DNA of 64,000 nucleotides, from IMG/VR virus record IMGVR_UViG_3300041409_000458; one strand, 5' to 3'. The notes beneath the pieces are model-generated. The model was not told the origin of the DNA. It made no database searches and saw only the letters and a list, made by a program, of their open reading frames with translations. This stretch comes from a virus. Lineage: Duplodnaviria; Heunggongvirae; Uroviricota; Caudoviricetes. Numbering within the stretch: position 1 is the stretch's first letter; every line of letters begins with the position of its first letter. Positions 1 to 57,915 of the stretch are shown here, piece after piece. Both the position numbers and the translations under genes were made by a program.

Positions 1-152
1 TCTTAACGTATAATTCGAGTCCTTCTTTACCTTCTTTAAATGTAAAGTGGTCGTTAAATTTCTCCTTGAATGACTTTGCAAATTCTGCAACATTATCAAT
101 GTTACCATCGAATATGTGGTAATCAATTATTACTGGTTTCTTTTGTGCTCTC
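1..152 (-). CDS. hypothetical protein, partial (N-terminus at 152, continues past window start)
   Basis: Minus-strand open frame from ATG at 152 (MRAQKKPVIIDYHIFDGNIDNVAEFAKSFKEKFNDHF...) with no stop before position 1; protein-like composition. Confidence 0.35.
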
Positions 153-548
153 ATTTTCTTGTTTTATAGTGTTAACTAATAATCTTAAATCGTTATACAT
201 GGAAATTAATCCTGCACGGTCATCAAGTAATGCAGAGAAGAAAGGTTTTTTACTTTCCCAAGGTAATGGAATACCTCCATCATTAATTGCATCAAAAGGT
301 AAATCATTTTTCTCAAGAAATTCTGCAACATACCCTAAATCTTTGTAAGCTGTCCAGCATACAAGTTTACAATCAATTGATTTCAAATCCTTCAGTAGTT
401 GCTTTACCAGAGGATATGTGTGACCAGTCCCATGATAGTCATGAATGGTATCATCAAAATCATAAGCTACAGTAATACTACCATATCTTTTATACTCAGA
501 TAATAATCTATTAAAGTTTGCTGTTGGTTCTAAATATTTATCACTCAT
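123..548 (-). CDS. HAD-superfamily phosphatase, 5'(3')-deoxyribonucleotidase-like
   Basis: 141 aa; N-terminal motif AYDFDDTIHDY matches HAD motif I DxDx(T/V); size typical of phage deoxyribonucleotidases. Confidence 0.55.
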   Translation of the reverse strand: MSDKYLEPTANFNRLLSEYKRYGSITVAYDFDDTIHDYHGTGHTYPLVKQLLKDLKSIDCKLVCWTAYKDLGYVAEFLEKNDLPFDAINDGGIPLPWESKKPFFSALLDDRAGLISMYNDLRLLVNTIKQENESTKETSNN

Positions 549-1366
549 ATTACTTTATATTGTGTTACATAATCGGTTACCGGAATACTTCCTCCAATTC
601 CAAATTCGAAAGTATTCAAATCATGATGAGAATTCGTACAGTAAATATGGTCAATTATCTTATGAAGTTCTATAAATCCTTTAGAGAAAAGTCCATGACT
701 CACATAGAGATAAACTTTCCGAGCTTTGTGTTCTCTTAGAGCTTTCCCTAATAACTCAAAAGTGTAACCTCCATCACATAAATCATCTACAATCAGACAA
801 TCTTTTCCTTCTACATCGTGAGTGAACATTAAAGTAATTTTTCCGTCCTTATCACGATGTTTCATAGCTCCCATAACTGGGAGATTTAATTTCTCTCCAA
901 ATTCAAAAACTTTCTTATAAGCTCCTGCATCTGGAGATACTAGTAATATATCATCCAATCCCGGAGAAAGCTGTTCATCACACATTTTCTGACGTATATC
1001 TGCAACAGCTTTCACAACGAACTCAAGAGAGCTTCTTTTCTTCGAGTTATTAATCAAAGCCAAGGTAACGTCACTGTGAGGGTCAAAGACTTCAACTTTC
1101 CAGAAGTTACAGCTATTAATTACATCTGTAATAATTTTTAAGTCAAAAGATTGGTCTGGACCAAATCTTCTATCACTCCTCTGTCCAAACATACAAGGAA
1201 TAAATAAATCATAATTTTCATGCTTATTCTTTCCTATTTCTCCTATTGCTGCTAAGAACATTAAATCCTCATAAGAGTTTAGTCTTTGTCTTATTACATG
1301 ACTATTGTCACCTTGTACCCATTTGGCAGATATCTGACCGTCAGGAAATCGTATCCTTTCAAACAT
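545..1366 (-). CDS. ribose-phosphate pyrophosphokinase (PRPP synthetase)-like protein; possible ADP-ribose pyrophosphate synthetase analog
   Basis: 273 aa; PRPP-binding motif DCLIVDDLCDGGYTF (type I PRTase/Prs signature); start/stop overlap with neighbours. Confidence 0.65.
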   Translation of the reverse strand: MFERIRFPDGQISAKWVQGDNSHVIRQRLNSYEDLMFLAAIGEIGKNKHENYDLFIPCMFGQRSDRRFGPDQSFDLKIITDVINSCNFWKVEVFDPHSDVTLALINNSKKRSSLEFVVKAVADIRQKMCDEQLSPGLDDILLVSPDAGAYKKVFEFGEKLNLPVMGAMKHRDKDGKITLMFTHDVEGKDCLIVDDLCDGGYTFELLGKALREHKARKVYLYVSHGLFSKGFIELHKIIDHIYCTNSHHDLNTFEFGIGGSIPVTDYVTQYKVI

Positions 1367-1369
1367 AAT

Positions 1370-1969
1370 TTAATATTTTATAAATGATAAAATTACCCTT
1401 AATTTCTCTAATTGTTTATTTTTGTTAGCACAGTTCCAAACATGACTTTTTGCTAACTTGTAAAATTCTGCAAAATCTTTTACAGATTTCCATTCTTTAA
1501 CAAATTTATTAGAGGAAGAGTATTCATATACCTTTTTCGGTACATATTTTCTATTCCATTTTGAAACATCTCTCTTTACTCCTCTTTTACTATCAGATAT
1601 TTTTTTTCTTGTCTCTTCTGAATAAGTTTTAAGATGAGTATTATAGAATGCTATTTTTCTTTTTGCTTCTTCTGTATGCTTCCTTCCAGCACAATTACCT
1701 GCAATCTTACAGATGTTGTACTGAGAAGGAGTATTATCTATCCACCATTGCTCTCTTGGAATTAAATTTTCTTCAGTGTCAAGCTTCTCTAAAATGAGGA
1801 ACTCAAAATTAGATTCTCCATATTTATTCCATGAGTTTTGAAGATAGGAATTGTCATGATTTCCATTCCTTAACTTAGAAATATGATAGTTCTTCCGTCT
1901 GTTAAATTTAACAGCAGAGCCAATGTACCTTTTCAGGTTTATTTTGTTTAGTATAGAGTATATTACCAT
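1370..1969 (-). CDS. GIY-YIG homing endonuclease
   Basis: 199 aa; N-terminal IYSILNKINLKRYIGSA ... RRKNYH ... NSW..YGE..FEF matches GIY-YIG catalytic motif; basic C-terminal DNA-binding tail. Confidence 0.75.
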   Translation of the reverse strand: MVIYSILNKINLKRYIGSAVKFNRRKNYHISKLRNGNHDNSYLQNSWNKYGESNFEFLILEKLDTEENLIPREQWWIDNTPSQYNICKIAGNCAGRKHTEEAKRKIAFYNTHLKTYSEETRKKISDSKRGVKRDVSKWNRKYVPKKVYEYSSSNKFVKEWKSVKDFAEFYKLAKSHVWNCANKNKQLEKLRVILSFIKY

Positions 1970-2037
1970 AATACTAATATACTAAATTATCCCGACATCA
2001 CCAAATTTAATCCGGATATTTTATTCTTTCAAACATA

Positions 2038-2508
2038 TTAACATTGATTTAGCTTAAGCTCATCTCTTACTCTCATAAGAATGATACCTAATTGATTTTG
2101 CCCTACTCCTCTACAAACTCCCCAGTAAGTGTCATTCCACCAGTTTGTTTCTTCAAGGTATTTATCTCCCGTTTCAAGCAGTTTAACTGCTAATTCCGGA
2201 TTTCTGCAGAATTTATCTTTGAGAATGTTATACATTATTTGTAATTTGACTTCTTCCCAATCATGTCTTAAAGTAAGTTCTTTTCCAGCTCTTTTAGCTT
2301 TACCAGCTTCCATAATTTGGAAAGGTTCTCTTTCAACAAGGAATTTGGTCTTAGCTGCCTGAAAGGCTGCCTCACTGTTTTTGAATTCCATGTCTTCAAA
2401 TACAATAACACAAGGCCAAAAGTTACTTAGCCATCTGTTTTCTCCTGCAAATCCTTTTATAGATGTACCGTTATTGACGTATTCATCTGTGTTTTGGTCC
2501 CATTTCAT
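2038..2508 (-). CDS. NADAR (YbiA-like) domain protein
   Basis: 156 aa; FLSNF, SEAAFQAAK, MYNILKDKF..NPELAVKLLETGDKYLEE and YWGV..G.N.LG motifs characteristic of the NADAR/DUF1768 family. Confidence 0.7.
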   Translation of the reverse strand: MKWDQNTDEYVNNGTSIKGFAGENRWLSNFWPCVIVFEDMEFKNSEAAFQAAKTKFLVEREPFQIMEAGKAKRAGKELTLRHDWEEVKLQIMYNILKDKFCRNPELAVKLLETGDKYLEETNWWNDTYWGVCRGVGQNQLGIILMRVRDELKLNQC

Positions 2509-2509
2509 A

Positions 2510-2986
2510 TTATACTTTTTTATTGCTTTTTTGACCTAATTTAAAGAAATATTCAAACAATCCTTCAAAACGCTGGTATATCCAATTCCACAAATCTCCT
2601 AAGAGGTCAGAGATTGCCCAATATATTAAAGATATCGGCCAGATAAACCACCACCTAAATACATTACCTTTTAGCTCATTAATAGCCCTTGTGGTGTAAT
2701 AAGAGCTTGAATCGTCTGATTTTGTATTTCGTCCATAAAAATAAACCCGAATTACAGCATAAATGAAGCCTACTCCGAGATATGCAAAAACATTAATCCA
2801 AGTAACAAATCGGAGAAGAGGAATATTTCCCCAAAAATGATTTACCAGAACAAAAGCAACTACTGCAACGAATGCAATACTTCCTTCCTCAGCACCTTCT
2901 GACCAGAAGAATGCAATAATTAGTGCTGCAAGGAATATGCAGAACCATACAAAGCTACCAAAGATAGTCAAAGATAATAAATCCAT
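2510..2986 (-). CDS. membrane protein (multiple predicted TM helices)
   Basis: 158 aa; hydrophobic segments FVWFCIFLAALIIAFF, IAFVAVVAFVLV, VFAYLGVGFIYAVI. Confidence 0.4.
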   Translation of the reverse strand: MDLLSLTIFGSFVWFCIFLAALIIAFFWSEGAEEGSIAFVAVVAFVLVNHFWGNIPLLRFVTWINVFAYLGVGFIYAVIRVYFYGRNTKSDDSSSYYTTRAINELKGNVFRWWFIWPISLIYWAISDLLGDLWNWIYQRFEGLFEYFFKLGQKSNKKV

Positions 2987-3300
2987 TATTCGTAATTTTT
3001 AATTGTTACCTCTTCTGCAATTAGATAATACATAATTGCTTTCTGAGAATAGTATTCAGCAGTTATATCTGCTATTTTTTCAATTTGTTCCTTAGTACAA
3101 GCTATTCTCACAGGAATCATCCTTTCTTTAAAAAGTTCTCCTGCAGATGAAACCCATTGACCTTTGATAGGTGGTATTATTGTTAATCCACCTGTAATCT
3201 TCCTTACTTTCGAATCCCACACCTTGTGATATCTCGTTCGAAAGGGTTTTCCTTCATTACTTATTGTTGGAACTAATATTTCATAGAAGAGCATTTTCAT
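2986..3300 (-). CDS. hypothetical protein
   Basis: 104 aa ORF, stop-start overlap with flanking genes (operon-like packing). Confidence 0.35.
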   Translation of the reverse strand: MKMLFYEILVPTISNEGKPFRTRYHKVWDSKVRKITGGLTIIPPIKGQWVSSAGELFKERMIPVRIACTKEQIEKIADITAEYYSQKAIMYYLIAEEVTIKNYE

Positions 3301-3704
3301 TCACAGTGCTTTTTATAGTTTTCAAGATAACTTTTGATGTTATGCAAACCCACATCATTCATAGAATGAATAAAATACTTTGGAAGAGGTTTCTTGTGCT
3401 CCATACAATACTCAACCAGCCATTTGGCACAATCCAAACCTGTCATCTCTCTATTCTCCTGCTTATTATATGTTTCCCAATCCATTGTATCTATCACAGA
3501 ATAGTGCTCATCTGCCAAATCATGGTCAAATGCAATCCATTCAGGTAGTCCAGTATTGCTAATTAAGTTGACGAATTCCTTGTAATCCTTACACGTAATC
3601 CACTTCATATTAAGAAGCATATCAGCATAATCAGGATGCATATAAGAAGCTGCTACTTTCGGTGTACGAATGTCATCTAAAAATAAATTATAGGCCATTA
3701 TCAA
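3297..3704 (-). CDS. hypothetical protein
   Basis: 135 aa ORF, tightly packed with neighbours. Confidence 0.35.
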   Translation of the reverse strand: MIMAYNLFLDDIRTPKVAASYMHPDYADMLLNMKWITCKDYKEFVNLISNTGLPEWIAFDHDLADEHYSVIDTMDWETYNKQENREMTGLDCAKWLVEYCMEHKKPLPKYFIHSMNDVGLHNIKSYLENYKKHCE

Positions 3705-4251
3705 AAAGTTTAATCAAGTAATCTCTCATTTCAGGATACATATCGGCATTTACACTTTTGAGAAAGTGAGGGTTTTCCTCCTTATATTTCTCAACCATTC
3801 TGCTTTTAGTCAATTTTCCCCATTGAACATTTGCTATTCTATCACAAAGTTTTACAAAGGTAGCACCTTTTGTATTACGAATTCCTTCATAGTACTTTTC
3901 ATTTGCTTTTTCTGCTCTGTTTTTTCCTTTTTCATTAGAGACTGCATAAATAATATCTGCAACTTCCTGACCTAACATTTGTTTGATATCATTGTAGGAG
4001 CATCTGGCATCCTCATAAAGGTCATGTCCCCAACATGCATCTTCAATTGTTGAATGAGTAATATCTACTATTTGAAAAGAGTTGTGGTAGCAAGACTCTT
4101 CTGTTGTTATAAAATTCTTTGGTAAGAGATGTTTGAAATCATTATAGACCTGAACAACCATTCTCAAGTGCATCTCATATGGTAGGTATTTATCATAATA
4201 ATGATTTGTTTTTTGGTGTCGTTCAATACACCAGCTTTGTGCTGTTTGCAT
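3688..4251 (-). CDS. HD-domain phosphohydrolase-like protein
   Basis: 187 aa; H...HD motif (CYHNSFQ ... CWGHDLYED ... KLCDRIANV) resembles HD metal-dependent phosphohydrolases (e.g. 5'-deoxynucleotidase type). Confidence 0.4.
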   Translation of the reverse strand: MQTAQSWCIERHQKTNHYYDKYLPYEMHLRMVVQVYNDFKHLLPKNFITTEESCYHNSFQIVDITHSTIEDACWGHDLYEDARCSYNDIKQMLGQEVADIIYAVSNEKGKNRAEKANEKYYEGIRNTKGATFVKLCDRIANVQWGKLTKSRMVEKYKEENPHFLKSVNADMYPEMRDYLIKLFDNGL

Positions 4252-4407
4252 CTTATTTAGGTTTATAGTGTTTAAGAAAAACAGAAAGTAGAACTAGGAT
4301 TGTTCCAATTACTCCTGTTAATACTTGGTCCTTAGCTATTGCATAGCCAATAAGTACACCTCCAACACAGTCTCCTGTATCTTCAATGAATTCTAACCAA
4401 TTTGATT

Positions 4408-4809
4408 TCATGTTTGCTTTTTTAAATACTGTGAGAATTGAAAGAGAGCTTCAAATATAGCTTCTTTCTTATTTGGAAACCTATGCTGAGTTCCATTCCA
4501 GACAGATGGTGTAGATATTGTTCCGTTACTCTTTATTACAACATCAGTCTTAACGATGTATATAGGATGACCCCGAGCTTCAATCCACTCAAGAGCATAG
4601 AATTGCCAGTTAGCATCAGAGTCATATTTTGCATGACGACCAAGCGTTTCAAGGCATTCATCTTTATCTTTCATTCCACAGCACCAATCTCCTTCTATTA
4701 AAGGATTATATATTGTTCCCTTGTAATATGGTTGTTGAATTTCTAACCAAGGTTCCACCTTAGCTCCTAGCATTTCAGCTATGGCTAAGTTCTTTTCTTG
4801 TGTTGTCAT
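4408..4809 (-). CDS. phage ABA-sandwich-domain-like protein
   Basis: 133 aa; N-terminal NLAIAEMLGAKVEPW resembles the conserved start of phage ABA sandwich domain proteins. Confidence 0.3.
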   Translation of the reverse strand: MTTQEKNLAIAEMLGAKVEPWLEIQQPYYKGTIYNPLIEGDWCCGMKDKDECLETLGRHAKYDSDANWQFYALEWIEARGHPIYIVKTDVVIKSNGTISTPSVWNGTQHRFPNKKEAIFEALFQFSQYLKKQT

Positions 4810-4820
4810 ATTCTATTGAT

Positions 4821-5087
4821 TTAGGGGTGATTGAGTACATCTGCAACTAAATCATCTATGTGAACAGTTGTTCCACCAGATTTAGCAGCTTCAGATAATT
4901 CTTTAATTAGATATATCATATCTATTTCAAGAGGTATAACTTGTCCATTTTGACAATTTTCCTCAAGAGAGTTTTGAGCTTTCTTCAGATTATCAAAAAT
5001 AAGTGGCTCTCCACTTCCATCGTCTTTACAAACAATGGACAGATTACCATTGAAGTTATCAAGTTGTATGTATGTCATTATATTCAA
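4821..5087 (-). CDS. hypothetical protein
   Basis: 88 aa acidic ORF. Confidence 0.3.
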   Translation of the reverse strand: MNIMTYIQLDNFNGNLSIVCKDDGSGEPLIFDNLKKAQNSLEENCQNGQVIPLEIDMIYLIKELSEAAKSGGTTVHIDDLVADVLNHP

Positions 5088-5742
5088 TTTTAATTGGTGT
5101 TATTGTATTAGTTTCAGTATTAGTGATTTTAAATTGCCAACCTTGCTTTCCTCCTTTCATAGAACTTGCTATGTTATTGTACTCATACTCTAATTCTACA
5201 CTTATAGGTACTTTTTGTAGAGATTTGATATATGATTCTTCAAAATTTATAAAAGCTTTATCCCATGAATTAGTTACTGAACTAAGCATTGATTTGGCTC
5301 TTGCCCCAGCTTTAAAAGCTTTTCTTACATCAGCTTCTGTGTATTGTTTTTGATTATTTGTACCTTTTATCCAATTTGGCAATATTTCTAAATGAGTGTA
5401 TGGTTTACAAAAATTAATAGCATCTTGTTCATCTATAAAAGTACAAACATGTATTCTTGAATTAGCTTTTTCACCAGCTTTTGGATTGTATACCTCAAAT
5501 ACATGTATATCTGGTAATGGTTCTTCAATTAAAGGAACTCCTTCAATACGAATACCTATAGAAGCTATTACTTTAAAATCAATATTATTTAATAATTCAT
5601 AATCCATTGCTGGACCATAAACACATTCATTAACAATATTATAAAAATAATCACCTTTTTTAGCTTCTTTATCAACTACTACATATCCTCCATCTATAGG
5701 AATAATAGAGTCTTGTTTAAATATTTTTGTCATTTTTGCCAA
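5059..5742 (-). CDS. hypothetical protein
   Basis: 227 aa ORF, no recognisable motif. Confidence 0.35.
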   Translation of the reverse strand: MAKMTKIFKQDSIIPIDGGYVVVDKEAKKGDYFYNIVNECVYGPAMDYELLNNIDFKVIASIGIRIEGVPLIEEPLPDIHVFEVYNPKAGEKANSRIHVCTFIDEQDAINFCKPYTHLEILPNWIKGTNNQKQYTEADVRKAFKAGARAKSMLSSVTNSWDKAFINFEESYIKSLQKVPISVELEYEYNNIASSMKGGKQGWQFKITNTETNTITPIKIEYNDIHTT

Positions 5743-6209
5743 GTTTTATTATTGACAATAGATGATATATTAGCAGATGTTATATTAAATTGTTGTGCTA
5801 ATTTATATCCATTACCATATTTGTAATTTTGTTTTATATAGATTATATCCTCTAAAGATAATTTAGCATTAGGATTATGTCCTATACCTCTTTTGATATT
5901 ACCAGATTTTAGAGCATGTGCTATATTCTCCACACCTGTAGACCATTCTAGATTCCAATCATTATTATTTAGTTTATTGCTATCTAGATGGTTAATTTGT
6001 GGTTTATTAAAACGATTAGCAACAAAATGTTTTCCTACAAGCGTGTGAACTAAAACACTTTTACCTCTAAGTCGTATTTGATAATACCCACTTGTATTAA
6101 TACCAGCACTTAATATCTTCTTCTTTTTACTAATTAGGCTCTTTACCTTACCAGTATTACTAATCTGATATTCACCTTCATATCCCATTACATCTTTCCA
6201 AATTTCCAT
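5730..6209 (-). CDS. HNH homing endonuclease (NUMOD4 + HNH_3 type)
   Basis: 159 aa; W..V.GYEGEYQISNTGKV ... VHTLVGKHFV ... INHLDSNKLNNNDWNLEWST..EN matches the HNH_3 homing endonuclease signature. Confidence 0.7.
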   Translation of the reverse strand: MEIWKDVMGYEGEYQISNTGKVKSLISKKKKILSAGINTSGYYQIRLRGKSVLVHTLVGKHFVANRFNKPQINHLDSNKLNNNDWNLEWSTGVENIAHALKSGNIKRGIGHNPNAKLSLEDIIYIKQNYKYGNGYKLAQQFNITSANISSIVNNKTWQK

Positions 6210-6210
6210 G

Positions 6211-6423
6211 TTATTTTATATTTTCTAAACTATAAGCATTTAATATAGAATCTTTATCTATAGGTTGATAAGAATAACCATTAGAAGCATCTTTCCAATC
6301 TTTGGATTTCTCCAGTATAGCTTCAGCTTGTGCTTCTACATGAAGTTTAGCAAATTCTCTTGCCATACTACCATAATCATCCCACTCGCCAGACATTTCC
6401 ATTTCTTCCCAAGTTTGTATCAT
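6211..6423 (-). CDS. hypothetical small acidic protein
   Basis: 70 aa ORF. Confidence 0.3.
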   Translation of the reverse strand: MIQTWEEMEMSGEWDDYGSMAREFAKLHVEAQAEAILEKSKDWKDASNGYSYQPIDKDSILNAYSLENIK

Positions 6424-6692
6424 AGTAAGTCTTTTAATGCTTGTTTAGGCTCAAAATGATTTAAAGTTTCTGAACTATTACTACGGATTAGATATTCTAT
6501 AGCTTTTGCTTCTATATCTTCTTCATCGAGAGATATTTGTTTATGAGTTAGTATGTTTTCGAGGACTTCTGTAGCTGTATCCAGTTTATCCCAGCTACTG
6601 TTTCTTAATCGTCTTTCGACAGAATCCAGATATCTTCTGTTATTCTCTATCTCCTTCTTAAGGCTCTCTAGAGGTATTAATAAATGTGTCAT
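6420..6692 (-). CDS. hypothetical protein
   Basis: 90 aa ORF. Confidence 0.3.
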   Translation of the reverse strand: MTHLLIPLESLKKEIENNRRYLDSVERRLRNSSWDKLDTATEVLENILTHKQISLDEEDIEAKAIEYLIRSNSSETLNHFEPKQALKDLL

Positions 6693-7465
6693 TTGCTGAA
6701 TTTTGCCTCAAGAGCTTGTATGAGTTTTGACATATTACCATCATAGAAGCCTGAGCAGTTTATACAATTGATTTCCAACACTTTATACTCATCTTCAGAT
6801 AGACAAATATCTAATACGAAGGCATCTGCAGGACAATATAAATCACAAATTTGCTGAGCAAATATCTGAGCTTCCTGATTATTGTCCATGTTCAGGTAAT
6901 TAACTCTTCTACCAATTTTGTATTGACTAATTGTCACAGGTTTACCGTCAACAATCCAACAGCGTATCTCCTGTTGAATTTCCTTTAGAGGAGCTATGAG
7001 AATCTGTGTTTCTGCTGTTAAAGTTTGTTTAAGTGAGCTATCCTCAATTTCCTGACTCCATTCATTCCAGCTTTCATGGGTAAATATTTGTCCACTGAAT
7101 TGCTTCGTATCCTTTGTAGGACGAGCAAAGAACAAATGCGGATAATCTTCTGGAACTTTATCTCCAAAATTGATGACTTTACCATCAGAGTTAAGCATGT
7201 GATTGCCATAATGAGCTCCATAAACAGTCAAATCATGGTTTTCATTATACATTGAGCCCGGATACCAGTCATATTTCTTAGCTACAACAGCTAAATTTGT
7301 GGACCCGAAAGCCCAAACGTTTTTACGGTCCGTTTTGAACTCAAGTTCATCAGTAAATGGACGGAAGGGTATAACTTCATAGTCCATATTATATCTCTTC
7401 AAATGCTCTATTAGAGTATTGAAGTGGTGCTCTCTAAAGAGATTCTCTTGAATGATGTAATACAT
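6689..7465 (-). CDS. ATP-grasp fold enzyme
   Basis: 258 aa; C-terminal EIRCWIVDGKPVTISQYK ... FVLDICLSEDEYKVLEINCINCSGFYDG typical of ATP-grasp ATP-binding/catalytic lobes. Confidence 0.55.
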   Translation of the reverse strand: MYYIIQENLFREHHFNTLIEHLKRYNMDYEVIPFRPFTDELEFKTDRKNVWAFGSTNLAVVAKKYDWYPGSMYNENHDLTVYGAHYGNHMLNSDGKVINFGDKVPEDYPHLFFARPTKDTKQFSGQIFTHESWNEWSQEIEDSSLKQTLTAETQILIAPLKEIQQEIRCWIVDGKPVTISQYKIGRRVNYLNMDNNQEAQIFAQQICDLYCPADAFVLDICLSEDEYKVLEINCINCSGFYDGNMSKLIQALEAKFSK

Positions 7466-8020
7466 TACTTCTGTTTTTGTAGCTTCTTAATAAATTTTTC
7501 AGCATCAGATATAAGTTTTGCTGACTTTTTATCTTCAGCTATTTGAGCTTGCCTGTTGGCTTCATGCTTTTCGAGGTTTTCACCATTATAGATGTCCTCA
7601 GCTATTCTTTTACCTTCAGTGGAGTTTTCTGCTCTGTAGGCATTTGGAGATTTGTACTTCTTAGAACTTCTGCTTTCTCGTAAGTCTTGAACATAGGTTC
7701 CAGATACATGAAAGGAGCACCATTCTTTTTGTTCTTTAATCCATCCTTCCCAACCTCCCATTCGGTGTTTCCAAGTTATTCCTCTCATATTACTTGTTTT
7801 CTCCAAGCATATCACCATTTCTCATGGCAATAACCTCGGCTGTTGGATGATTACCTTTCATACCGCTAATAAGTATAGCAGCTTTAAGGAATTCTCTAGG
7901 ATTTTTCCTGTAAAACTTACTGTCTTTAGCCCATAAATTCTTCATCTGTGACCTGTGACAGTTGTCTCCTTTTGCCTTACCTGCTGTTGAGGAAGGTCTT
8001 TCTTTTCTACTTTTTGGCAT
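7465..8020 (-). pseudogene. possible disrupted HNH-AP2 homing endonuclease (two overlapping ORFs 7790..8020 and 7465..7818)
   Basis: Downstream ORF has AP2-like RGITWKHRMGGWEGWI motif; upstream basic ORF has degenerate H-N-N-like residues (CHRSQMKNLWAK); the pair overlaps in different frames. Confidence 0.3.
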
Positions 8021-8190
8021 AATATTTGGTTTAAATAAGAGAATTTGGCTCTATTTCACTGCCCCATTTCTGGGATTCTTTTCAAACCAAGAGAGCAGAC
8101 GTGACTATCACACGCTGTGGTCGGTCTTTCCAGTGCCCTTTACCTGCTCATGGTTCCATTTTCTCTTAAGGTTTAATTCACAAACCTAGT

Positions 8191-10242
8191 TTAAAATAAT
8201 GTTAATTGTTGTGTTCCTGAAAGTGACTCTACAAATGCTTTTGCCTTCTTACTCTTCTCAAGAGAGTCTATACGTTCTAAGACTTCCAGAATATACTGGT
8301 CATAATCAATATGATAGTTCTCTGATGTAAAAAACTTGTTAAAGTAGGTTATTAAAGGTTGTCCAAGTAAATTAGGAGCGTTGACATGATTATTCATTGC
8401 TTTTCCAAAGTTGTTATAGCCTCTTTTCCAAAGGACTGAGCCTTTAGTTGAAAGGAAATATCGTACTAATTTCTTATGTACTTTCTTTGTTACCCCTGTT
8501 TCATCACTCCATTGTTCTTCATAGTGCATTTTACCAGATGCTTTTTTAGCTATACAGAAATCAAAGATATTTTTATGCTCCCTAATAAAAGCTTCCGGAC
8601 TCTTTCCTTCTATAAAGTATGCCTCTAGAGCCAATGGAATAATTCTAGCAGATTTATTTTTGTTGATTTCAAATTCAGTCATGAATCTACCTTTCTTCTT
8701 AACACCTCCATCTTTCTTTTTGCCAATGTAGGAGTTAATAGAATCCTGCCATAAACCTTCAAAATCAACATATTCTAGCTTACCATTCTCAAAGTTTCCT
8801 ACCTGAGTTTCCCACTTAGCACAAATTTCATTGTACAAAGGCTCTTTATCCTTTGGAAACATAGTTACAATACCATCAGTGTTTCCACTAACTACTTGAA
8901 AACCAGCTTCTTCCATCATTTCAATGAGCATCAAAATCTCAATCTCATTGCCCATACAAACCCTCAGCAAACCTTCCGGGTATTCAAGGAATGAACCTTT
9001 CTGTCCTAGCTTACCAAAGAGACCACCATTATTACAAAGTTTAAGCATTTCCTGCAATCCCATCAAAGGTCTTGCTTCATCATGCTTACCCTCTGCTTTA
9101 AGTCTATTAGCTTCCTTTTTGTAAACTGACCTATTCTTTACATTCCTATCAGCAATCTTAATGATAGTAATCTTCAAGTGTGGAGGACAAACTGGTTCTT
9201 TAATGATGAAATTTGGATATTGACCACCAACGTCAGCATCTCTCAAGAGGTAGCCAATCAAAGCTTTGAGCTTTCTATTCTTCTCATTTGAGTGCAATCC
9301 TCCTTTAGCAACTGTGTAAACAGTATTTCCAATAGTAATAGGAAACTCCTGCTTTTCAGCTAATACAAAGGTTTCTCCAAGTTCTTTTATGAATTTCTTA
9401 AGCTTTGGAGTAGTAAATTTCATACTCTTAGGAAAGAACTCCTTAAACTTTTTACCATAAGGATAAACAACCTTCTTTGGGAAGATACTCTTCTCATCAG
9501 CTATTCTTTCCTCTTTGATATAGTTCAATTTGTTCCATTCTTCACCAATCTTAACGTCACTCCAATTCAAGCATTGCATACCTGTTTCTTTCTGAACATC
9601 AAAACGGTCCTGAATCTTGTTTTTACCTTTGTAATCCTTAAGCTCAGGTAGGTCAACATTTCCTAATATGAGATTAAATACTCCTTCAGTAACTTCTACG
9701 TCATTACGACGGTAATTCTGAATCAATTGCACATCTTCTTCTGTTAATCCCAGCCTTGTGTGATGAATTGGCATTTCTTCCACGTCCATGTTCAGTATAA
9801 AGGCACACCATTTCAATGATGTTCTTCTGGCCTCATTATCAAAGTGAAGGATTTTGAACACATCTAAAGGTGGAATTGTGAATTGGTGTTCTTTACAGGC
9901 TGGAAATAAGCCATAATTACTATCTTCAATTACCTTTTGAGCGTAATCAGAGATTTTCTTACAAATCTGGAGATTTTCCAAATCAAACCATTTCTGATGA
10001 TTATCAACTATATATTCCATGACCTGTTGGTCAAAGTTGATTCCGTTGAACGTAACTAAATAATCATATTCTCCAGAGGTGTAATGCTTAACGAACTCGA
10101 AAAGCTCATTCTTGTACTTTGACACTTGAAATTCGTGCCATTCTTTGGTATCTGGATTGTAGAAACCTGCGTCGAATAGTTCAACCATGGTCTCAATATC
10201 ACAAATACCAATCTTTTTGTCTGTGTTATGTGCAATTAACAT
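8191..10242 (-). CDS. family B DNA polymerase with 3'-5' exonuclease domain
   Basis: 683 aa; Exo I GICDIETMVE, Exo II FNGINFDQQVMEY; Pol motif A DADVGGQYPNFI (DxxSLYPS-like), motif B KLCNNGGLFGKLG (KxxxNSxYG-like), motif C VSGNTDGIV (YGDTDS-like). Confidence 0.8.
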   Translation of the reverse strand: MLIAHNTDKKIGICDIETMVELFDAGFYNPDTKEWHEFQVSKYKNELFEFVKHYTSGEYDYLVTFNGINFDQQVMEYIVDNHQKWFDLENLQICKKISDYAQKVIEDSNYGLFPACKEHQFTIPPLDVFKILHFDNEARRTSLKWCAFILNMDVEEMPIHHTRLGLTEEDVQLIQNYRRNDVEVTEGVFNLILGNVDLPELKDYKGKNKIQDRFDVQKETGMQCLNWSDVKIGEEWNKLNYIKEERIADEKSIFPKKVVYPYGKKFKEFFPKSMKFTTPKLKKFIKELGETFVLAEKQEFPITIGNTVYTVAKGGLHSNEKNRKLKALIGYLLRDADVGGQYPNFIIKEPVCPPHLKITIIKIADRNVKNRSVYKKEANRLKAEGKHDEARPLMGLQEMLKLCNNGGLFGKLGQKGSFLEYPEGLLRVCMGNEIEILMLIEMMEEAGFQVVSGNTDGIVTMFPKDKEPLYNEICAKWETQVGNFENGKLEYVDFEGLWQDSINSYIGKKKDGGVKKKGRFMTEFEINKNKSARIIPLALEAYFIEGKSPEAFIREHKNIFDFCIAKKASGKMHYEEQWSDETGVTKKVHKKLVRYFLSTKGSVLWKRGYNNFGKAMNNHVNAPNLLGQPLITYFNKFFTSENYHIDYDQYILEVLERIDSLEKSKKAKAFVESLSGTQQLTLF

Positions 10243-10296
10243 GTCTATGTGTTATCATGCTGATACAATATCGTACCCGAGGGCTGACAAGGCCAC

Positions 10297-10698
10297 TTAA
10301 GGAATATCTTCCGTTGATAATACTTTTTCTGCATAGTGATTATCAATATAGTTGTGAATTCTATATGTAATCTCCTCTCTATCATAAGAAACTCCTATTT
10401 CATTATGTGGATGGTCCTCAAACTCACAACTGTATTTTATGAAATAGTCAGAGATTGCTGTCCAAAACTCATGTATATAGAATTCTCTGAATTCACTTGG
10501 TATATCATTATATGATTTATCATGTAACTTGTTATTCTCTCTATACCATGATAATCCTGCTGCTGTTGGTCTCCATCTCTGAACTACCCTTCTAAAAGTC
10601 CATACCTTACAATTTCTATAGGTATGTTCCTCAACATCAAGAGGTTTTGCTGTACGAGATAAATATATCTCCGCAACATTTCTGAACTCTTCTGTCAT
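10297..10698 (-). CDS. hypothetical protein
   Basis: 133 aa ORF. Confidence 0.35.
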   Translation of the reverse strand: MTEEFRNVAEIYLSRTAKPLDVEEHTYRNCKVWTFRRVVQRWRPTAAGLSWYRENNKLHDKSYNDIPSEFREFYIHEFWTAISDYFIKYSCEFEDHPHNEIGVSYDREEITYRIHNYIDNHYAEKVLSTEDIP

Positions 10699-11045
10699 CT
10701 TCCATTAAAGTTAGGGGTTAAGTAATGACCTCCAGCATTAGAAGGACAGTTTAAATACTCACATACTTCTTCTCTAGTAAGTCTTTTGGCTTTATTCCAG
10801 TTATTTCGTTCCATTACGTCCATGCTTAAGCCATCTACTTTAGTCATATAAAACCCTTGCTCTTTTGAGTCGAATTTTATTATAGTACAAAAGTTGTCCA
10901 TTCTGGTAACAATAAGATTTGGAACTATATCTTTCGGTACCCATTTACGAGGAACTCTTTTGGTCACCTCAGCTGATGCTGGAATAAGTTTACCTATTAA
11001 AGGTAATACAAATAATCCAGCTAAAAAATTACGTCTATTCATATT
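10695..11045 (-). CDS. secreted protein with twin-arginine (Tat) signal peptide; start adjusted to internal Met
   Basis: Internal MNRRNFLAGLFVLPLIGKLIPASA has RRxFL Tat motif plus hydrophobic core and ASA-E cleavage site; using this Met removes the overlap with the upstream gene. Confidence 0.45.
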   Translation of the reverse strand, partial: NMNRRNFLAGLFVLPLIGKLIPASAEVTKRVPRKWVPKDIVPNLIVTRMDNFCTIIKFDSKEQGFYMTKVDGLSMDVMERNNWNKAKRLTREEVCEYLNCPSNAGGHYLTPNFNGR

Positions 11046-11052
11046 ATATAAT

Positions 11053-11679
11053 TTATAATAATAACAATCTATCAACTCCAAAAGCAAATCCGACTCCTCC
11101 TTTATATTCTCCTCCTCCACATACCTGTTTTTGAGCACCTAAGTTATTACAGCTTATTTCAAAGCCCTTTCCGTCCTTGTAGTAATCCAAACCTCTCTTT
11201 ACATCACTTCTAAGCTCAAATGAGCCCGGAATGCTCTTATAAAGGCTTACAGCTAAATCCTTCAGATATCCAAGGTAATCTTTTGTAGGGTTAAGTATTT
11301 CAACCCCTAATTGAGTAAATTGACGATATCTTCCAGATTGAGGTCGTTCTCCTCTGAAACATTCCTGAATGTAGAATAATTTGACGTCCTTTTTATGTTT
11401 GAAAGTTGTAGACGCAAGTTTTTGGACTATTGCCGTATATTCTGGAGCCAAACATATATCTCTTCCTCCTCTGTCTTGAAAATTGAACATGAGATTGTTG
11501 TTTTCCTCTCCTACTTTTCCTTTAAAGGTCTCCTGAAGCTGAATTATTGGAATCGACATTTCTGTGAATCCTTCCGTAATGAGTCTTTGAACTGATTGTT
11601 CAATAAAGTCTCGTTTTCTGTTGCCAAAGAGGATTCGGGTACCTTTATAGCAGGTTTCTTTGATTTCAATGTCTTTCAT
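11053..11679 (-). CDS. class II aminoacyl-tRNA synthetase-like core (HisRS/HisZ-like), lacks anticodon-binding domain
   Basis: YKGTRILFGNRKRDFIE ... FQDRGGRDICLAPEYTA (HisRS N-terminal pattern); motif 2 FRGERPQSGRYRQFTQLGVEI; motif 3 GGGEYKGGVGFAFGVDRL; only about 210 aa. Confidence 0.6.
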   Translation of the reverse strand: MKDIEIKETCYKGTRILFGNRKRDFIEQSVQRLITEGFTEMSIPIIQLQETFKGKVGEENNNLMFNFQDRGGRDICLAPEYTAIVQKLASTTFKHKKDVKLFYIQECFRGERPQSGRYRQFTQLGVEILNPTKDYLGYLKDLAVSLYKSIPGSFELRSDVKRGLDYYKDGKGFEISCNNLGAQKQVCGGGEYKGGVGFAFGVDRLLLL

Positions 11680-53761: not shown

Positions 53762-53763
53762 CT

Positions 53764-56544: not shown

Positions 56545-56648
56545 AAATTAGTAATATTGTCAAATTCTAATTAGCTATATTCACATTTATTTGGAAAATT
56601 AACTTAAAAGATTTATTATCAATTTATAGAACACTAAAAACCAACAAG

Positions 56649-57890: not shown

Positions 57891-57915
57891 TTTACCAGAG
57901 TAAAAACAAATATAT

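What the first reader, a model, noticed from the sequence alone, without database searches (positions are those of the whole stretch)
123..2508. HAD phosphatase + PRPP-synthetase-like + NADAR cluster: candidate NAD+/ADP-ribose metabolism or anti-defense module
Three adjacent minus-strand genes encode the following.
- A HAD-type deoxyribonucleotidase-like phosphatase.
- A short (273 aa) Prs-like pyrophosphokinase with a clear PRPP-binding loop.
- A NADAR domain protein (after a GIY-YIG endonuclease insertion).

Prokaryotic Prs homologs in phages have been reported as ADP-ribose pyrophosphate synthetases in NAD+ reconstitution pathways that counter NAD-depleting defences. NADAR domains process ADP-ribose adducts, including reversal of DarT-mediated DNA ADP-ribosylation. 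Their co-localisation suggests a counter-defense or NAD salvage function rather than simple nucleotide synthesis. No Nampt/Namat-like gene is visible in this window.
Basis: partly seen in the sequence, partly recalled or inferred. Interest (0 to 1): 0.65.

Follow-up and report, generated by a model that had tools for sequence, protein, structure and literature searches.

The report
Phage NAD-rebuilding operon with extra phosphatase
These genes belong to a phage pathway (NARP1) that rebuilds the cofactor NAD+ after bacterial immunity destroys it. This version carries a small phosphatase that I found beside the pathway's genes in many phages and Bacteroidota genomes, and that none of the pathway papers I could search mentions.

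Summary
All three calls hold: a HAD phosphatase (123-548), a Prs-like protein (545-1366) and a NADAR protein (2038-2508), with a GIY-YIG endonuclease gene between the last two.

**NARP1 core.** The Prs-like protein fits Adps, the ADP-ribose pyrophosphokinase of NARP1, not housekeeping Prs. The "missing" partner lies just off the window. The parent contig, identical over 11.4 kb, encodes a Namat-type transferase starting about 1.5 kb past the left edge, six genes downstream of Adps.

**Main new point.** The HAD phosphatase is not a bystander.
- Both Adps and Namat flank it in 58 of 80 viral contigs and in 63 of 80 bacterial genome loci.
- It usually sits between them, the slot of the known Macro-domain phosphatase Adpp (NARP1-AP).
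- HAD and Macro never co-occurred in 80 Adps-anchored loci.
- In Bacteroidota chromosomes the trio follows the ADP-ribose sensor NrtR.
- No NARP1 paper I could search mentions it.

**Inferred function (untested).** It probably turns a phosphorylated ADP-ribose or NAD(P) derivative into usable substrate.

**NADAR.** It is catalytically intact but only occasionally linked to NARP1. An independent role in reversing ADP-ribosylation is as likely.

**Verdict.** A known pathway in a new variant.

The parts
545..1366 (-). Adps-type Prs-like enzyme (273 aa), the predicted ADP-ribose pyrophosphokinase that makes ADPR-PP, the first step of NARP1
   Evidence: - **Family hits:** Pfam Pribosyltran and Pribosyl_synth.
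- **Canonical Prs model TIGR01251:** 92.9 bits, below the cut-off of 113. E. coli Prs scores 422.7 and ICP1 Adps 98.3.
- **Residues named in the ICP1 Adps structure paper:** F18, R87, F92, H121, D161, K185, I194, D212, D213, C215, D216 and F221 are all conserved in alignment A2.
- **C terminus:** it lacks the roughly 26 C-terminal residues of E. coli Prs that the paper calls a family signature.
123..548 (-). Capless HAD-superfamily phosphatase (141 aa), overlapping the Adps stop by 4 nt; a candidate third component of NARP1
   Evidence: - **Fold and motifs:** four invariant HAD motifs. The AF2 model has pLDDT 92. The top Foldseek hits are 2obb (BT0820) and 1xpj, then the Pnkp1 and T4 PNK phosphatase domains.
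- **Viral loci:** both Adps and Namat lie within 8 kb in 58 of 80 loci, or 43 of 59 clusters after dereplication at 90%.
- **Bacterial genome loci:** both are present in 63 of 80.
- **Unrelated cultured phages:** it is also inside NARP1 in Bacillus phage Megatron, crAss-like cr126_1 and cr111_1, and Bacteroides phage DAC15.
2038..2508 (-). NADAR-domain protein (156 aa), a predicted ADP-ribosyl N-glycohydrolase
   Evidence: - **Family:** PF08719 at 3e-23. The best PDB relatives are E. coli YbiA (1.3e-13) and Phytophthora NADAR 8bau.
- **Catalytic residues:** the Glu and Lys seven residues apart are present ('SEAAFQAAK'). So is the YbiA-type third Glu ('YLEETNWWND'), read.
- **Synteny:** it is conserved next to GIY-YIG and Adps in sister contig L105.
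- **Elsewhere:** it is embedded in NARP1 in L259 and L239.
1370..1969 (-). GIY-YIG/NUMOD3 homing-endonuclease-like gene between NADAR and Adps
   Evidence: TIGR01453 scores 108.7 bits against a cut-off of 56. Pfam finds GIY-YIG and NUMOD3. The gene sits at the same position in L105. It is a selfish element, not part of the pathway.
1..154 (-). First 51 codons of a 91-aa ORF that overlaps the HAD 3' end and runs off the window; function unknown
   Evidence: On the parent contig this is L003:11213-11488, which matches phrog_419 (unknown function) at 8e-16. Beyond it, outside the window, lie four more genes:
- an NDT-like gene (PF15891);
- a 106-aa ORF;
- an endonuclease VII-like gene;
- Namat (L003:12839-14392).
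3297..3704 (-). cREC_REC protein (predicted cyclic-phosphate processing); a possible further accessory, weakly linked
   Evidence: PF20274 at 6e-21. A cREC gene lies directly upstream of Adps in relatives L189 and L190. It lies within the flanks in 7 of 80 HAD-anchored loci and 6 of 80 Adps-anchored loci.

Best explanation
**What it is.** The window's left end holds the upstream half of an extended NARP1 (NAD+ reconstitution pathway 1) locus. It belongs to an uncultivated phage of about 170 kb whose terminase is distantly crAss-like.

**Gene order** (transcribed towards coordinate 1 and beyond):
1. NADAR
2. GIY-YIG endonuclease
3. Adps
4. HAD phosphatase
5. 91-aa ORF (the window ends inside this gene)
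6. NDT-like protein
7. 106-aa ORF
8. endonuclease VII-like gene
9. Namat

**How it works.**
- *Inferred from characterised homologues:* when host NADase effectors cleave NAD+ into ADP-ribose and nicotinamide, Adps uses ATP to pyrophosphorylate ADP-ribose to ADPR-PP. Namat then joins ADPR-PP to nicotinamide, restoring NAD+.
- *Inferred from conserved gene linkage and fold only:* the HAD phosphatase is a conserved third component. It removes a phosphate monoester from a phosphorylated ADP-ribose or NAD(P) derivative. The product can then enter NAD+ resynthesis. This is the role that the unrelated Macro-domain phosphatase Adpp plays in NARP1-AP.
- *Candidate HAD substrates:* ADPR-1''-phosphate made by RES-type defences, or 2'-phospho-ADPR from NADP+ cleavage.
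- *NADAR:* an active-looking ADP-ribosyl glycohydrolase. It either reverses DarT-type DNA ADP-ribosylation on its own account, or releases ADP-ribose from a conjugate and feeds the pathway.

**Origin.** The Adps-HAD-Namat cassette closely resembles a Bacteroidota chromosomal operon controlled by the ADP-ribose sensor NrtR. The phage copy lacks that regulator.
For: **Adps identity**
- TIGR01251 scores are 92.9 for this protein, 98.3 for ICP1 Adps and 422.7 for E. coli Prs.
- The residues named in the ICP1 Adps structure paper are conserved, and the C-terminal module is lost.

**Namat identity**
- L003 positions 1-11366 equal window positions 11366-1 at 100% identity.
- The 517-aa NAMPT-like protein matches the SpbetaL1 Namat crystal structures 9W5X/9W5W at 3e-151. 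It matches human NAMPT only at about 3e-72.
- It carries GSYTYQMNTRD, which fits the Namat-specific motif GSX-phi-X-phi-X-phi-TRD.
- It lies six genes from Adps, inside the published ten-gene criterion.

**HAD linkage to NARP1**
- In viral contigs, 58 of 80 HAD loci have both Adps and Namat on the same strand. HAD lies between them in 38. The published NARP1 background is 4.3% of phage genomes.
- In bacterial genome loci, 63 of 80 have both, and HAD lies between them in 56.
- An NrtR gene lies next to the cassette in 57 of 80 bacterial loci and in none of 80 viral loci.
- The gene order differs between lineages (Adps-Namat-HAD in Bacillus phages, Namat-HAD-Adps in crAss-like phages), but adjacency is kept.
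- In 80 Adps-anchored loci, HAD (14) and Macro (17) never co-occur. About 3.0 co-occurrences were expected; hypergeometric P = 0.025.

**Precedent for accessory feeder enzymes inside NARP1**
- Adpp and RyDEP are both published examples.

**HAD fold**
- It is a capless HAD nearest to polynucleotide kinase 2'/3'-phosphatase domains, so a ribose phosphate monoester is a plausible substrate.
Against: - No biochemistry exists for this HAD family, and its nearest solved structure (BT0820) has no known function.
- Eighteen of 80 viral HAD loci show neither Adps nor Namat. Neighbours in a sample of NARP1-less loci include RNA ligase, Thg1, thymidylate synthase and dUTPase (L008). The family may therefore be a general ribose-phosphate or nucleotide phosphatase.
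- One locus has both Macro and HAD (L034), and two have HAD next to Macro without NARP1.
- One close relative pairs HAD with a NARP2-type NadM/Nudix plus Nampt pair and no Adps. The substrate is therefore not tied to Adps chemistry.
- The exclusivity test is weak. P is about 0.03, the set was not dereplicated, and a single Macro query was used.
- The Namat motif has Met, not an aromatic residue, at its seventh position.
- No formal Adps/Prs phylogeny was built.
- NADAR is near NARP1 in only 1 of 80 HAD-anchored and 3 of 80 Adps-anchored loci.
Confidence: 0.8

Rival explanations
1. The HAD protein is a general nucleotide or RNA-end phosphatase (a nucleotide-pool or RNA-repair enzyme). It merely shares the accessory-gene region with NARP1 and has no role in NAD+ reconstitution.
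For: - Eighteen of 80 viral HAD loci show neither Adps nor Namat.
- In L008 the gene precedes thymidylate synthase.
- Neighbours in NARP1-less loci include RNA_ligase (3), Thymidylat_synt (2), Metallophos (2), Thg1 and dUTPase.
- The nearest characterised folds are polynucleotide kinase phosphatase domains.
- Some GenBank records call it a polynucleotide kinase or a hydrolase.
Against: - About 72-79% of loci in two independent collections have Adps and Namat flanking it on the same strand, usually with HAD between them and often with overlapping reading frames.
- The linkage survives rearrangement of gene order across Herelleviridae, Crassvirales and Bacteroidota chromosomes.
- In bacteria the trio follows the ADP-ribose-responsive regulator NrtR.
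Confidence: 0.15
2. The classical annotation is right. The Prs-like enzyme makes PRPP and the NAMPT-like enzyme makes NMN, giving nucleotide and NMN synthesis or a NARP2-like route that relies on a host or phage NMN adenylyltransferase.
For: - Pfam and NCBIfam names are ribose-phosphate diphosphokinase and nicotinate/nicotinamide phosphoribosyltransferase.
- The catalytic K-x-R and DD residues shared with Prs are retained.
- Published work reports that Namat keeps NAM-PRPP catalysis in vitro (section title).
Against: - The protein falls below the canonical Prs cut-off, at the same level as the structurally characterised ICP1 Adps.
- The Adps-specific Cys215 equivalent and the altered PP loop are present, and the C-terminal regulatory module is missing.
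- The partner carries the Namat-only 11-residue motif and matches the Namat crystal structure far better than it matches NAMPT.
- No NMNAT-like gene was found by tblastn in the window or in L003. The only hit was an isolated Nudix-like segment about 10 kb away.
Confidence: 0.05
3. NADAR is an independent counter-defence gene, an orphan-antitoxin-type DNA ADP-ribosylglycohydrolase against DarT1-like toxins. Its position beside Adps is a coincidence of the accessory region, so the 'cluster' is two systems rather than one.
For: - Phage NADARs from three lineages neutralise DarTG1.
- NADAR homologues occur in 473 phage records, most of them unrelated to NARP1, such as Xylella, N4-like and SPbeta phages.
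- Only 1 of 80 HAD-anchored loci has NADAR nearby.
- Adps lies within 8 kb in 4 of 14 NADAR-anchored loci, and three of those four are near-identical contigs.
Against: - NADAR is embedded between Adps and Namat in L259 (18 bp from Namat) and in L239.
- NADAR, GIY-YIG and Adps keep the same order in sister contig L105.
- The third catalytic residue is the YbiA-type Glu, not the Asp of DarT1-associated NADARs or the His of T4-type AdfN.
- An earlier survey noted NADAR next to NAD+ salvage genes in phages.
Confidence: 0.5
4. The cassette is a host-derived housekeeping NAD+ recycling operon, used as an auxiliary metabolic gene set to raise NAD+ supply during replication and not specifically to counter immunity.
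For: - The closest Namat (57% identity) and HAD (46%) among the sequences compared are chromosomal Tenacibaculum genes.
- The nrtR-adps-HAD-namat operon is widespread in Bacteroidota chromosomes.
- The original NARP1 paper notes non-prophage bacterial NARP1 with a possible housekeeping role.
Against: - NARP1 acts only when ADP-ribose accumulates, and it has been shown to overcome Thoeris, DSR1/2, SIR2-HerA and SEFIR.
- Relatives carry Tad3, Tad2-like and Apyc1 anti-defence genes in the same region.
- The phage copy has lost the NrtR repressor.
Confidence: 0.15

Closest known systems
NARP1 (Adps + Namat; Osterman et al. 2024, bioRxiv 10.1101/2024.02.11.579819)
   Same: - A Prs-like enzyme with Adps features, and a NAMPT-like enzyme with the Namat motif.
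- Both genes lie on the same strand within ten genes of each other, in a phage.
   Different: - The two core genes are not adjacent. Five genes (about 2 kb) lie between them: a HAD phosphatase, a 91-aa ORF, an NDT-like gene, a 106-aa ORF and an endonuclease VII-like gene.
- Adps is only 34-39% identical to ICP1 Adps.
NARP1-AP (Adps-Adpp-Namat; Osterman et al. 2026, bioRxiv 10.64898/2026.01.28.702374)
   Same: A small phosphatase gene is embedded in the NARP1 operon, typically between Adps and Namat. The concept is the same: dephosphorylate a modified ADP-ribose so that NARP1 can use it.
   Different: - The phosphatase here is a capless HAD-superfamily enzyme, unrelated in fold to the Macro-domain Adpp.
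- Its substrate is unknown.
- The HAD version is common in Bacteroidota chromosomes and their phages and in Bacillus Bastillevirinae phages.
RyDEP within NARP1 (Lopez Rivera et al. 2026, bioRxiv 10.64898/2026.05.28.727677)
   Same: An accessory enzyme inserted in a NARP1 operon converts an NAD+-derived molecule into linear ADP-ribose for the pathway.
   Different: RyDEP is a glycosidase acting on 2'/3'cADPR signals. No RyR-domain gene was seen here. NADAR or the NDT-like gene might play a comparable role, but that is untested.
Bacterial nrtR-prs-nadV regulon (Rodionov et al. 2008, PMC2330246) and bacterial NARP1 (PMC12774641)
   Same: A Prs-like gene and a NadV-like gene form an operon under the ADP-ribose-responsive repressor NrtR. 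The Bacteroidota version is the closest relative of the phage cassette among those I compared.
   Different: The phage copy has no NrtR. The 2008 description lists prs-nadV only, and the HAD gene between them is not mentioned.
Phage NADAR counter-defence proteins (AdfN, NADAR-Bas32, NADAR-Bas60; PMC11257639)
   Same: A stand-alone phage NADAR domain with the catalytic Glu and Lys intact and no N-terminal extension.
   Different: The third catalytic position is the YbiA-type Glu, not His (T4 type) or Asp (DarG1 type). Activity on ADP-ribosylated DNA has not been shown for this clade.
T4 Pnkp / Pnkp1 phosphatase domains and BT0820 (PDB 2ia5, 4xru, 2obb)
   Same: The DxDxT capless HAD fold, which in Pnkp removes 2'/3'-phosphates from ribose.
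   Different: - There is no kinase domain.
- Sequence similarity is marginal: 27% identity to BT0820 over 114 columns, with a Foldseek E-value of 2.5e-5.
- The genomic context is NAD+ salvage, not RNA ligase.

Membership tests
NARP1 - Adps | A Prs-superfamily protein that is distinct from housekeeping Prs (the Adps clade) | tested here: met
   - TIGR01251 gives 92.9 bits against a cut-off of 113. ICP1 Adps scores 98.3 and E. coli Prs 422.7.
- All top tblastn hits are phage proteins, and the two contexts I inspected (phi3, 4MG) have a NAMPT-like gene two genes downstream.
- A formal tree with many canonical Prs sequences was not built.
- One NARP1-context protein (4MG) scores above the cut-off (163 bits), so this test is imperfect.
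NARP1 - Adps | The ADPR/ATP-site residues defined in the ICP1 Adps structures (F18, R87, F92, H121, D161, K185, D212, D213, C215, D216, F221) | tested here: met
   All of these residues are conserved in alignment A2 (residues). PP-loop positions 218-220 are G-Y-T in place of A-A-S, and F223 is L.
NARP1 - Adps | Loss of the C-terminal alpha11-alpha12 filament and regulatory module of Prs | tested here: met
   In alignment A5 the protein ends about 26 residues before the E. coli Prs C terminus, so the '...AEAIRRISNEES...' segment is missing (criterion).
NARP1 | A Namat homologue within ten genes of Adps | tested here: met
   It is absent from the window. On the identical parent contig it is the sixth gene downstream, at L003:12839-14392.
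NARP1 - Namat | [quoted passage not shown] | tested here: inconclusive
   The sequence is GSYTYQMNTRD. Its length and pattern fit, with Y at position 3, T/Q/N at the phi positions and TRD at the end. Position 7 is Met, not an aromatic residue. The match to the Namat crystal structure 9W5X is 3e-151, against about 3e-72 for human NAMPT.
NARP1 | The enzymatic reactions ADPR + ATP -> ADPR-PP, then ADPR-PP + nicotinamide -> NAD+ | not testable with these tools
   This needs purified proteins and LC-MS.
NARP1-AP | A Macro-domain ADPR-1''-phosphate phosphatase (Adpp) associated with the operon | tested here: not met
   No Macro domain was found among the window genes scanned or among the contig genes between Adps and Namat. 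A HAD phosphatase occupies that position instead.
HAD phosphatase superfamily | The four catalytic motifs (DxDxT/V; S/T; K/R; DD) on a Rossmannoid fold | tested here: met
   D30xD32xT34, T66, K101 and D109D110 are invariant. The AF2 model has pLDDT 92, and its best Foldseek hits are capless HADs. No Pfam model matches it.
   There is no Pfam or NCBIfam hit to such a family. The structural neighbours are BT0820, 1xpj and PNK phosphatase domains.
NADAR superfamily | The Pfam NADAR domain above its cut-off, with the catalytic Glu and Lys | tested here: met
   83.3 bits against a cut-off of 35.1. The Glu and Lys are seven residues apart in 'SEAAFQAAK', matching E36/K43 of T4 AdfN and E88/K95 of E. 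coli C7 NADAR.
DarT1-associated NADAR (DarG1) / T4 AdfN type | Asp (DarG1 type) or His (T4 phage type) at the third catalytic position, plus an N-terminal extension in DarG1 | tested here: not met
   The aligned position is Glu, as in the YbiA subfamily, and there is no N-terminal extension. This lowers the claim of membership in those clades. It does not exclude the same activity.
Housekeeping Prs (PRPP synthetase) | A score above the curated Prs model cut-offs and an intact DTGGT ribose-5-phosphate loop | tested here: not met
   Every Prs model scores below its cut-off. The loop reads DGGYT.

The most novel reading that the evidence does not exclude
The HAD protein founds a second, non-homologous class of NARP1-associated phosphatase.

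- It would extend NAD+ reconstitution to phosphorylated cleavage products that the two-enzyme pathway cannot use. Candidates are ADPR-1''-phosphate from RES-type defences and 2'-phospho-ADPR or NADP(H) from NADP+ attack.
- It is ancestral to a three-gene nrtR-controlled ADP-ribose recycling operon in Bacteroidota that phages captured.
- Together with NADAR, cREC and the very frequent NDT-like gene, it would make NARP1 the hub of a modular funnel in which interchangeable enzymes convert diverse NAD+-derived defence products into ADP-ribose.
Probability: 0.4. Interest if true: 0.7.

Novelty: new variant of a known kind. Interest (0 to 1): 0.55.

Why it matters
**Background.** NAD+ depletion is one of the commonest bacterial antiviral strategies, and NARP1 is the main known phage answer to it. 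Its weak point is that it accepts only plain ADP-ribose. Defences that leave a phosphate on ADP-ribose, such as aRES, defeat it unless the phage adds a phosphatase (Adpp).

**If the HAD protein is a second such phosphatase:**
- It would show convergent solutions to the same arms-race problem.
- It would predict which phages can resist which NAD(P)-degrading systems. That includes phages of Bacteroidota and Bacillus, where aRES is reported in 4.7% and 10.4% of genomes.
- It would add a previously overlooked third gene to the long-known bacterial nrtR-prs-nadV regulon.

**Further leads.** The NDT-like gene (28 of 80 Adps-anchored loci) and the occasional NADAR and cREC neighbours are untested candidates for the same role.

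Tried and rejected
- **Megablast of window 1-6000 against phage genomes.** No match. The major head protein also has no tblastn match, so no close cultured relative is available for annotation transfer.
- **Looking for Namat or Nampt inside the window.** None found.
- **The off-edge ORF as a second Prs-like gene.** The tblastn match to 4MG Adps had E = 1.1. Rejected: it is a 91-aa protein of unknown function (phrog_419).
- **The small gene between Adps and Namat in phi3 and 4MG as a HAD homologue.** Rejected. The phi3 gene is a Macro domain.
- **phrog_619 as a discriminator between Adps and Prs.** Rejected: E. coli Prs scores as well as the window protein (193 against 194 bits).
- **PDB search for an Adps structure.** The local copy returned only canonical Prs chains, so residues were mapped through the ICP1 sequence instead.
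- **NADAR next to NARP1 in Bacillus phage SPbetaL3.** Not so; the neighbouring 275-aa gene is unrelated.
- **The HAD as a salvage enzyme for ADPR-cyclic-phosphate, the breakdown product of ADPR-PP.** Kept only as a minor option, because a close HAD relative sits with a NARP2-type pair that lacks Adps.
- **The HAD as an inorganic pyrophosphatase pulling the Namat reaction.** Judged unlikely for a capless HAD. This rests on my own knowledge of the superfamily, not on a test.
- **Promoter and terminator scan.** Uninformative: 24 promoter-like sites against 28 expected, and no intergenic terminator.
- **Literature.** Searches for NARP1 together with HAD, haloacid, phosphoheptose isomerase or Nuc_deoxyri_tr2 found nothing.

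Full report
**Observation**

The left end of the window carries a tight run of minus-strand genes:
- NADAR (2038-2508)
- a GIY-YIG/NUMOD3 endonuclease (1370-1969)
- a 273-aa Prs-like protein (545-1366)
- a 141-aa protein (123-548) that overlaps the Prs-like stop codon by 4 nt

The domain calls are significant.
- NADAR scores 83.3 bits against a cut-off of 35.1, and Pribosyltran and Pribosyl_synth are just above their cut-offs.
- The endonuclease scores 108.7 bits on TIGR01453 against a cut-off of 56.
- The 141-aa protein has no Pfam hit, but it is a genuine HAD phosphatase. The four catalytic motifs are invariant among 13 homologues: D30xD32xT34, T66, K101 and D109D110.
- Its AlphaFold2 model (pLDDT 92) best matches capless HADs: BT0820 (2obb), 1xpj, and the phosphatase domains of Pnkp1 and T4 polynucleotide kinase.
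- Nothing supports the label 'deoxyribonucleotidase-like'.

**The Prs-like protein is Adps-like, not housekeeping Prs**

- On the canonical Prs model TIGR01251 it scores 92.9 bits, below the cut-off of 113. E. coli Prs scores 422.7, and the structurally characterised Adps of Vibrio phage ICP1 scores 98.3.
- I aligned it to ICP1 ORF228. That protein's numbering matches the residues named in the Adps structure paper.
- In that alignment the window protein keeps F18, R87, F92, H121, D161, K185, I194, D212, D213, C215, D216 and F221.
- It lacks about 26 C-terminal residues of E. coli Prs. The paper calls the loss of that module a family signature.
- The loop that binds ribose-5-phosphate in Prs reads DGGYT in place of DTGGT.
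- Two limits apply. phrog_619 does not separate Adps from Prs. One NARP1-context protein (phage 4MG) scores above the TIGR01251 cut-off, so the HMM test is imperfect. I did not build a full tree.

**The partner gene lies just outside the window**

- No Namat or Nampt is detectable in the 64 kb.
- An exact-protein look-up found the parent contig. Its first 11,366 bases are 100% identical to window positions 11366-1, and it continues past the window's left edge.
- The gene order there is Adps, HAD, a 91-aa ORF (its first 51 codons are window 154-1), an NDT-like protein (PF15891), a 106-aa ORF, an endonuclease VII-like gene, and a 517-aa NAMPT-like protein.
- That protein matches the SpbetaL1 Namat crystal structures 9W5X/9W5W at 3e-151, but human NAMPT only at about 3e-72.
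- It carries GSYTYQMNTRD, which fits the Namat-only motif GSX-phi-X-phi-X-phi-TRD. The one deviation is Met at position 7, where an aromatic residue is usual.
- It is the sixth gene from Adps, inside the ten-gene criterion used to define NARP1.
- The locus is therefore NARP1, split by accessory genes and mobile endonuclease genes.

**The HAD phosphatase is a recurrent NARP1 component**

*Cultured phages.* In the annotated phage collection its homologues (82 records) sit inside NARP1 operons of unrelated phages.
- Bacillus phage Megatron has the order Prs-like, NAMPT-like, HAD.
- The crAss-like phages cr126_1 and cr111_1 and Bacteroides phage DAC15 have the order NAMPT-like, HAD, Prs-like, with overlapping reading frames.

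*Viral contigs.* A profile scan of IMG/VR returned 259 relatives.
- Of the best 80 loci, 58 have both Adps and Namat within 8 kb on the same strand. HAD lies between them in 38.
- After dereplication at 90% HAD identity the figure is 43 of 59 clusters.
- The published background is NARP1 in 4.3% of phage genomes.

*Bacterial genomes.* A scan of one genome per species returned 102 relatives, mostly Bacteroidota: Flavobacterium, Tenacibaculum, Mucilaginibacter, Niabella and Saprospiraceae.
- Of the best 80 loci, 63 have both genes, and HAD lies between them in 56.
- In Tenacibaculum and Flavobacterium cheniae the gene directly upstream is NrtR, the ADP-ribose-responsive repressor of NAD genes.
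- An NrtR-like gene lies next to the cassette in 57 of 80 bacterial loci and in none of 80 viral loci.
- The nrtR-prs-nadV regulon was described in 2008 without the intervening gene.
- The phage Namat and HAD are most similar to the Tenacibaculum copies among the sequences I compared (57% and 46% identity).
- This suggests the phage cassette and the Bacteroidota operon share a recent origin, and that the phage copy has lost the regulator.

**The HAD slot is the slot of the known accessory phosphatase**

- NARP1-AP is Adps, Adpp and Namat. Adpp is a Macro-domain enzyme that converts ADPR-1''-phosphate, the product of the aRES defence, to ADP-ribose. It accompanies 15% of NARP1 operons.
- The gene between Adps and Namat in Vibrio phage phi3 is such a Macro protein.
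- In 80 viral loci anchored on relatives of the window's Adps, Namat is present in 77. Macro is present in 17, HAD in 14, and both in none. About 3.0 co-occurrences were expected; hypergeometric P = 0.025.
- This test is only suggestive. The set was not dereplicated, and a single Macro query was used.
- One HAD-anchored locus does have both genes (L034).
- A second published precedent, RyDEP, shows that enzymes embedded in NARP1 can feed it with ADP-ribose.
- None of the NARP papers, nor the supplementary tables of the aRES paper, mention a HAD protein.

**Mechanism**

*Inferred from characterised homologues:* Adps converts ADP-ribose plus ATP to ADPR-PP, and Namat joins ADPR-PP to nicotinamide to give NAD+.

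*Inferred from context and fold:* the HAD enzyme removes a phosphate monoester from a phosphorylated ADP-ribose or NAD(P) species so that its product can re-enter NAD+ synthesis.

The candidate substrates, as I rank them, are:
1. **ADPR-1''-phosphate.** aRES is reported in 4.7% of Bacteroidota genomes and 10.4% of Bacillota genomes. These are the host phyla where the HAD version is common.
2. **2'-phospho-ADPR or NADP(H).** The fold resembles 2'/3'-phosphatases that act on ribose.
3. **Monoesters derived from ADPR-cyclic phosphate**, the observed breakdown product of ADPR-PP.

Option 3 is weakened by a close relative (HAD 68% identical). There the HAD gene precedes a NadM/Nudix-like gene and a Nampt-like gene, with no Adps. 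That is a NARP2-type pair, and a Tad3 gene lies 4 kb upstream.

Against any NAD-specific role, 18 of 80 viral HAD loci show neither Adps nor Namat. Neighbours in a sample of NARP1-less loci include RNA ligase, Thg1, thymidylate synthase and dUTPase, as well as NADAR, Tad2-like and Apyc1. The family may therefore be a general ribose-phosphate phosphatase recruited to different tasks.

**NADAR**

- The protein has the catalytic Glu and Lys seven residues apart, and a YbiA-type Glu at the third catalytic position.
- Phage NADARs of three lineages are known to reverse DarT1 DNA ADP-ribosylation.
- Linkage to NARP1 is weak. It is present in 1 of 80 HAD-anchored loci and 3 of 80 Adps-anchored loci. 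Adps lies within 8 kb in 4 of 14 NADAR-anchored loci, three of which are near-identical contigs.
- The linkage is still not negligible.
  - In L259 the operon is Adps, NDT-like, NADAR, Namat, with NADAR 18 bp from Namat.
  - In L239 NADAR also lies between the core genes.
  - A sister contig keeps NADAR, GIY-YIG, Adps, a 167-aa ORF, HAD, an 81-aa ORF, NDT-like, endonuclease VII and Namat in the same order.
- I rate an independent role in reversing ADP-ribosylation and a feeder role for NARP1 as about equally likely.

**The phage**

- No nucleotide match exists to sequenced phages.
- The terminase is 26-27% identical to those of crAss-like phages, the portal and terminase match PHROG families, and the major head protein has no tblastn match.
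- The longest contig carrying the identical HAD protein is 169,883 bp.
- The host is probably a member of the Bacteroidota. This is inferred from the crAss-like terminase and from the bacterial relatives of the cassette.

**Verdict**

- The system is a known kind (NARP1) in a variant I could not find described. It has a HAD-family phosphatase in place of the Macro-domain Adpp, plus an NDT-like gene and nearby NADAR and cREC genes.
- The functional claim for the HAD protein rests on gene linkage and fold only. It needs the assays listed under next steps.

Noticed in passing
L003:11493-11957 (outside the window, about 130-590 bp beyond its left edge): An NDT-like gene (PF15891, Nuc_deoxyri_tr2) lies between HAD and Namat. 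By tblastn it is the commonest NARP1 neighbour in my samples:
- 28 of 80 Adps-anchored viral loci;
- 13 of 80 HAD-anchored viral loci;
- 8 of the 104 neighbouring ORFs scanned around 36 dereplicated loci in a Pfam census.

Its nearest solved structure, 4mcj, is uncharacterised. None of the NARP papers I read mentions it.
   Followed up: partly
L108-L187 (bacterial genome loci), e.g. L118:6377-9872 and L124:6414-9844: Bacteroidota chromosomes carry a conserved nrtR-adps-HAD-namat operon. An NrtR-like gene lies next to the cassette in 57 of 80 bacterial loci and in none of 80 viral loci. The 2008 description of nrtR-prs-nadV regulons does not list the HAD gene.
   Followed up: partly
window 3297-3704 and 3688-4251 (minus strand): A cREC_REC protein (predicted cyclic-phosphate processing) overlaps an HD-domain phosphohydrolase that weakly resembles the RelA/SpoT hydrolase domain. 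A cREC gene lies directly upstream of Adps in relatives L189 and L190. Whether the pair acts on ADP-ribose cyclic phosphate is untested.
   Followed up: partly
L106:8001-10680 (relative, HAD 68% identical): Here HAD is followed by a NadM/NatV-like protein (weak cytidylyltransferase-like hit plus NUDIX) and a Nampt-like gene, with no Adps. This is a NARP2-type pair. A Tad3 (Thoeris anti-defence) homologue lies 4 kb upstream.
   Followed up: partly
viral loci L008-L087 (Pfam census, alignment A4): NAD synthase (NadE; 4 ORFs) and isochorismatase/nicotinamidase-like genes (4 ORFs) flank some HAD-NARP1 operons. This hints at a deamidated (nicotinate) route in some phages.
   Followed up: no
L259:5932-9253 and L239:5986-12761: NADAR genes are embedded between Adps and Namat. 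In L259 the order is Adps, NDT-like, NADAR, Namat. In L239 it is Adps, Macro, further genes, NADAR, Namat.
   Followed up: partly
window 1370-1969, 5730-6209; L003:12355-12870: Three mobile-endonuclease-like genes lie in or beside the locus: GIY-YIG/NUMOD3, a NUMOD4 protein, and an endonuclease VII-like gene just upstream of Namat. The GIY-YIG and endonuclease VII genes are conserved in sister contig L105.
   Followed up: partly
window 44000 (strand switch); 51485-59625: Coding strand and GC skew flip near 44 kb. Downstream lie a terminase only 26-27% identical to crAss-like phages, a portal gene, and a head protein with no tblastn match in the phage collection. This is a very divergent phage of about 170 kb.
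   Followed up: partly
window 11796-12059 (minus strand): A Nudix-like segment was detected by tblastn with the L106 NadM/Nudix protein (E = 1.7e-6). It was not characterised.
   Followed up: no
window 6689-7465 (minus strand): An R2K_3/R2K_2 ATP-grasp-like protein (phrog_7313) is conserved at the same relative position in sister contig L105. Its function in this phage is unknown.
   Followed up: no
L033 and L036 (about 8001-8900): Here the HAD gene is immediately followed by a Macro-domain gene, with no Adps or Namat within 8 kb. That would be unexpected if HAD and Macro were strictly redundant.
   Followed up: no
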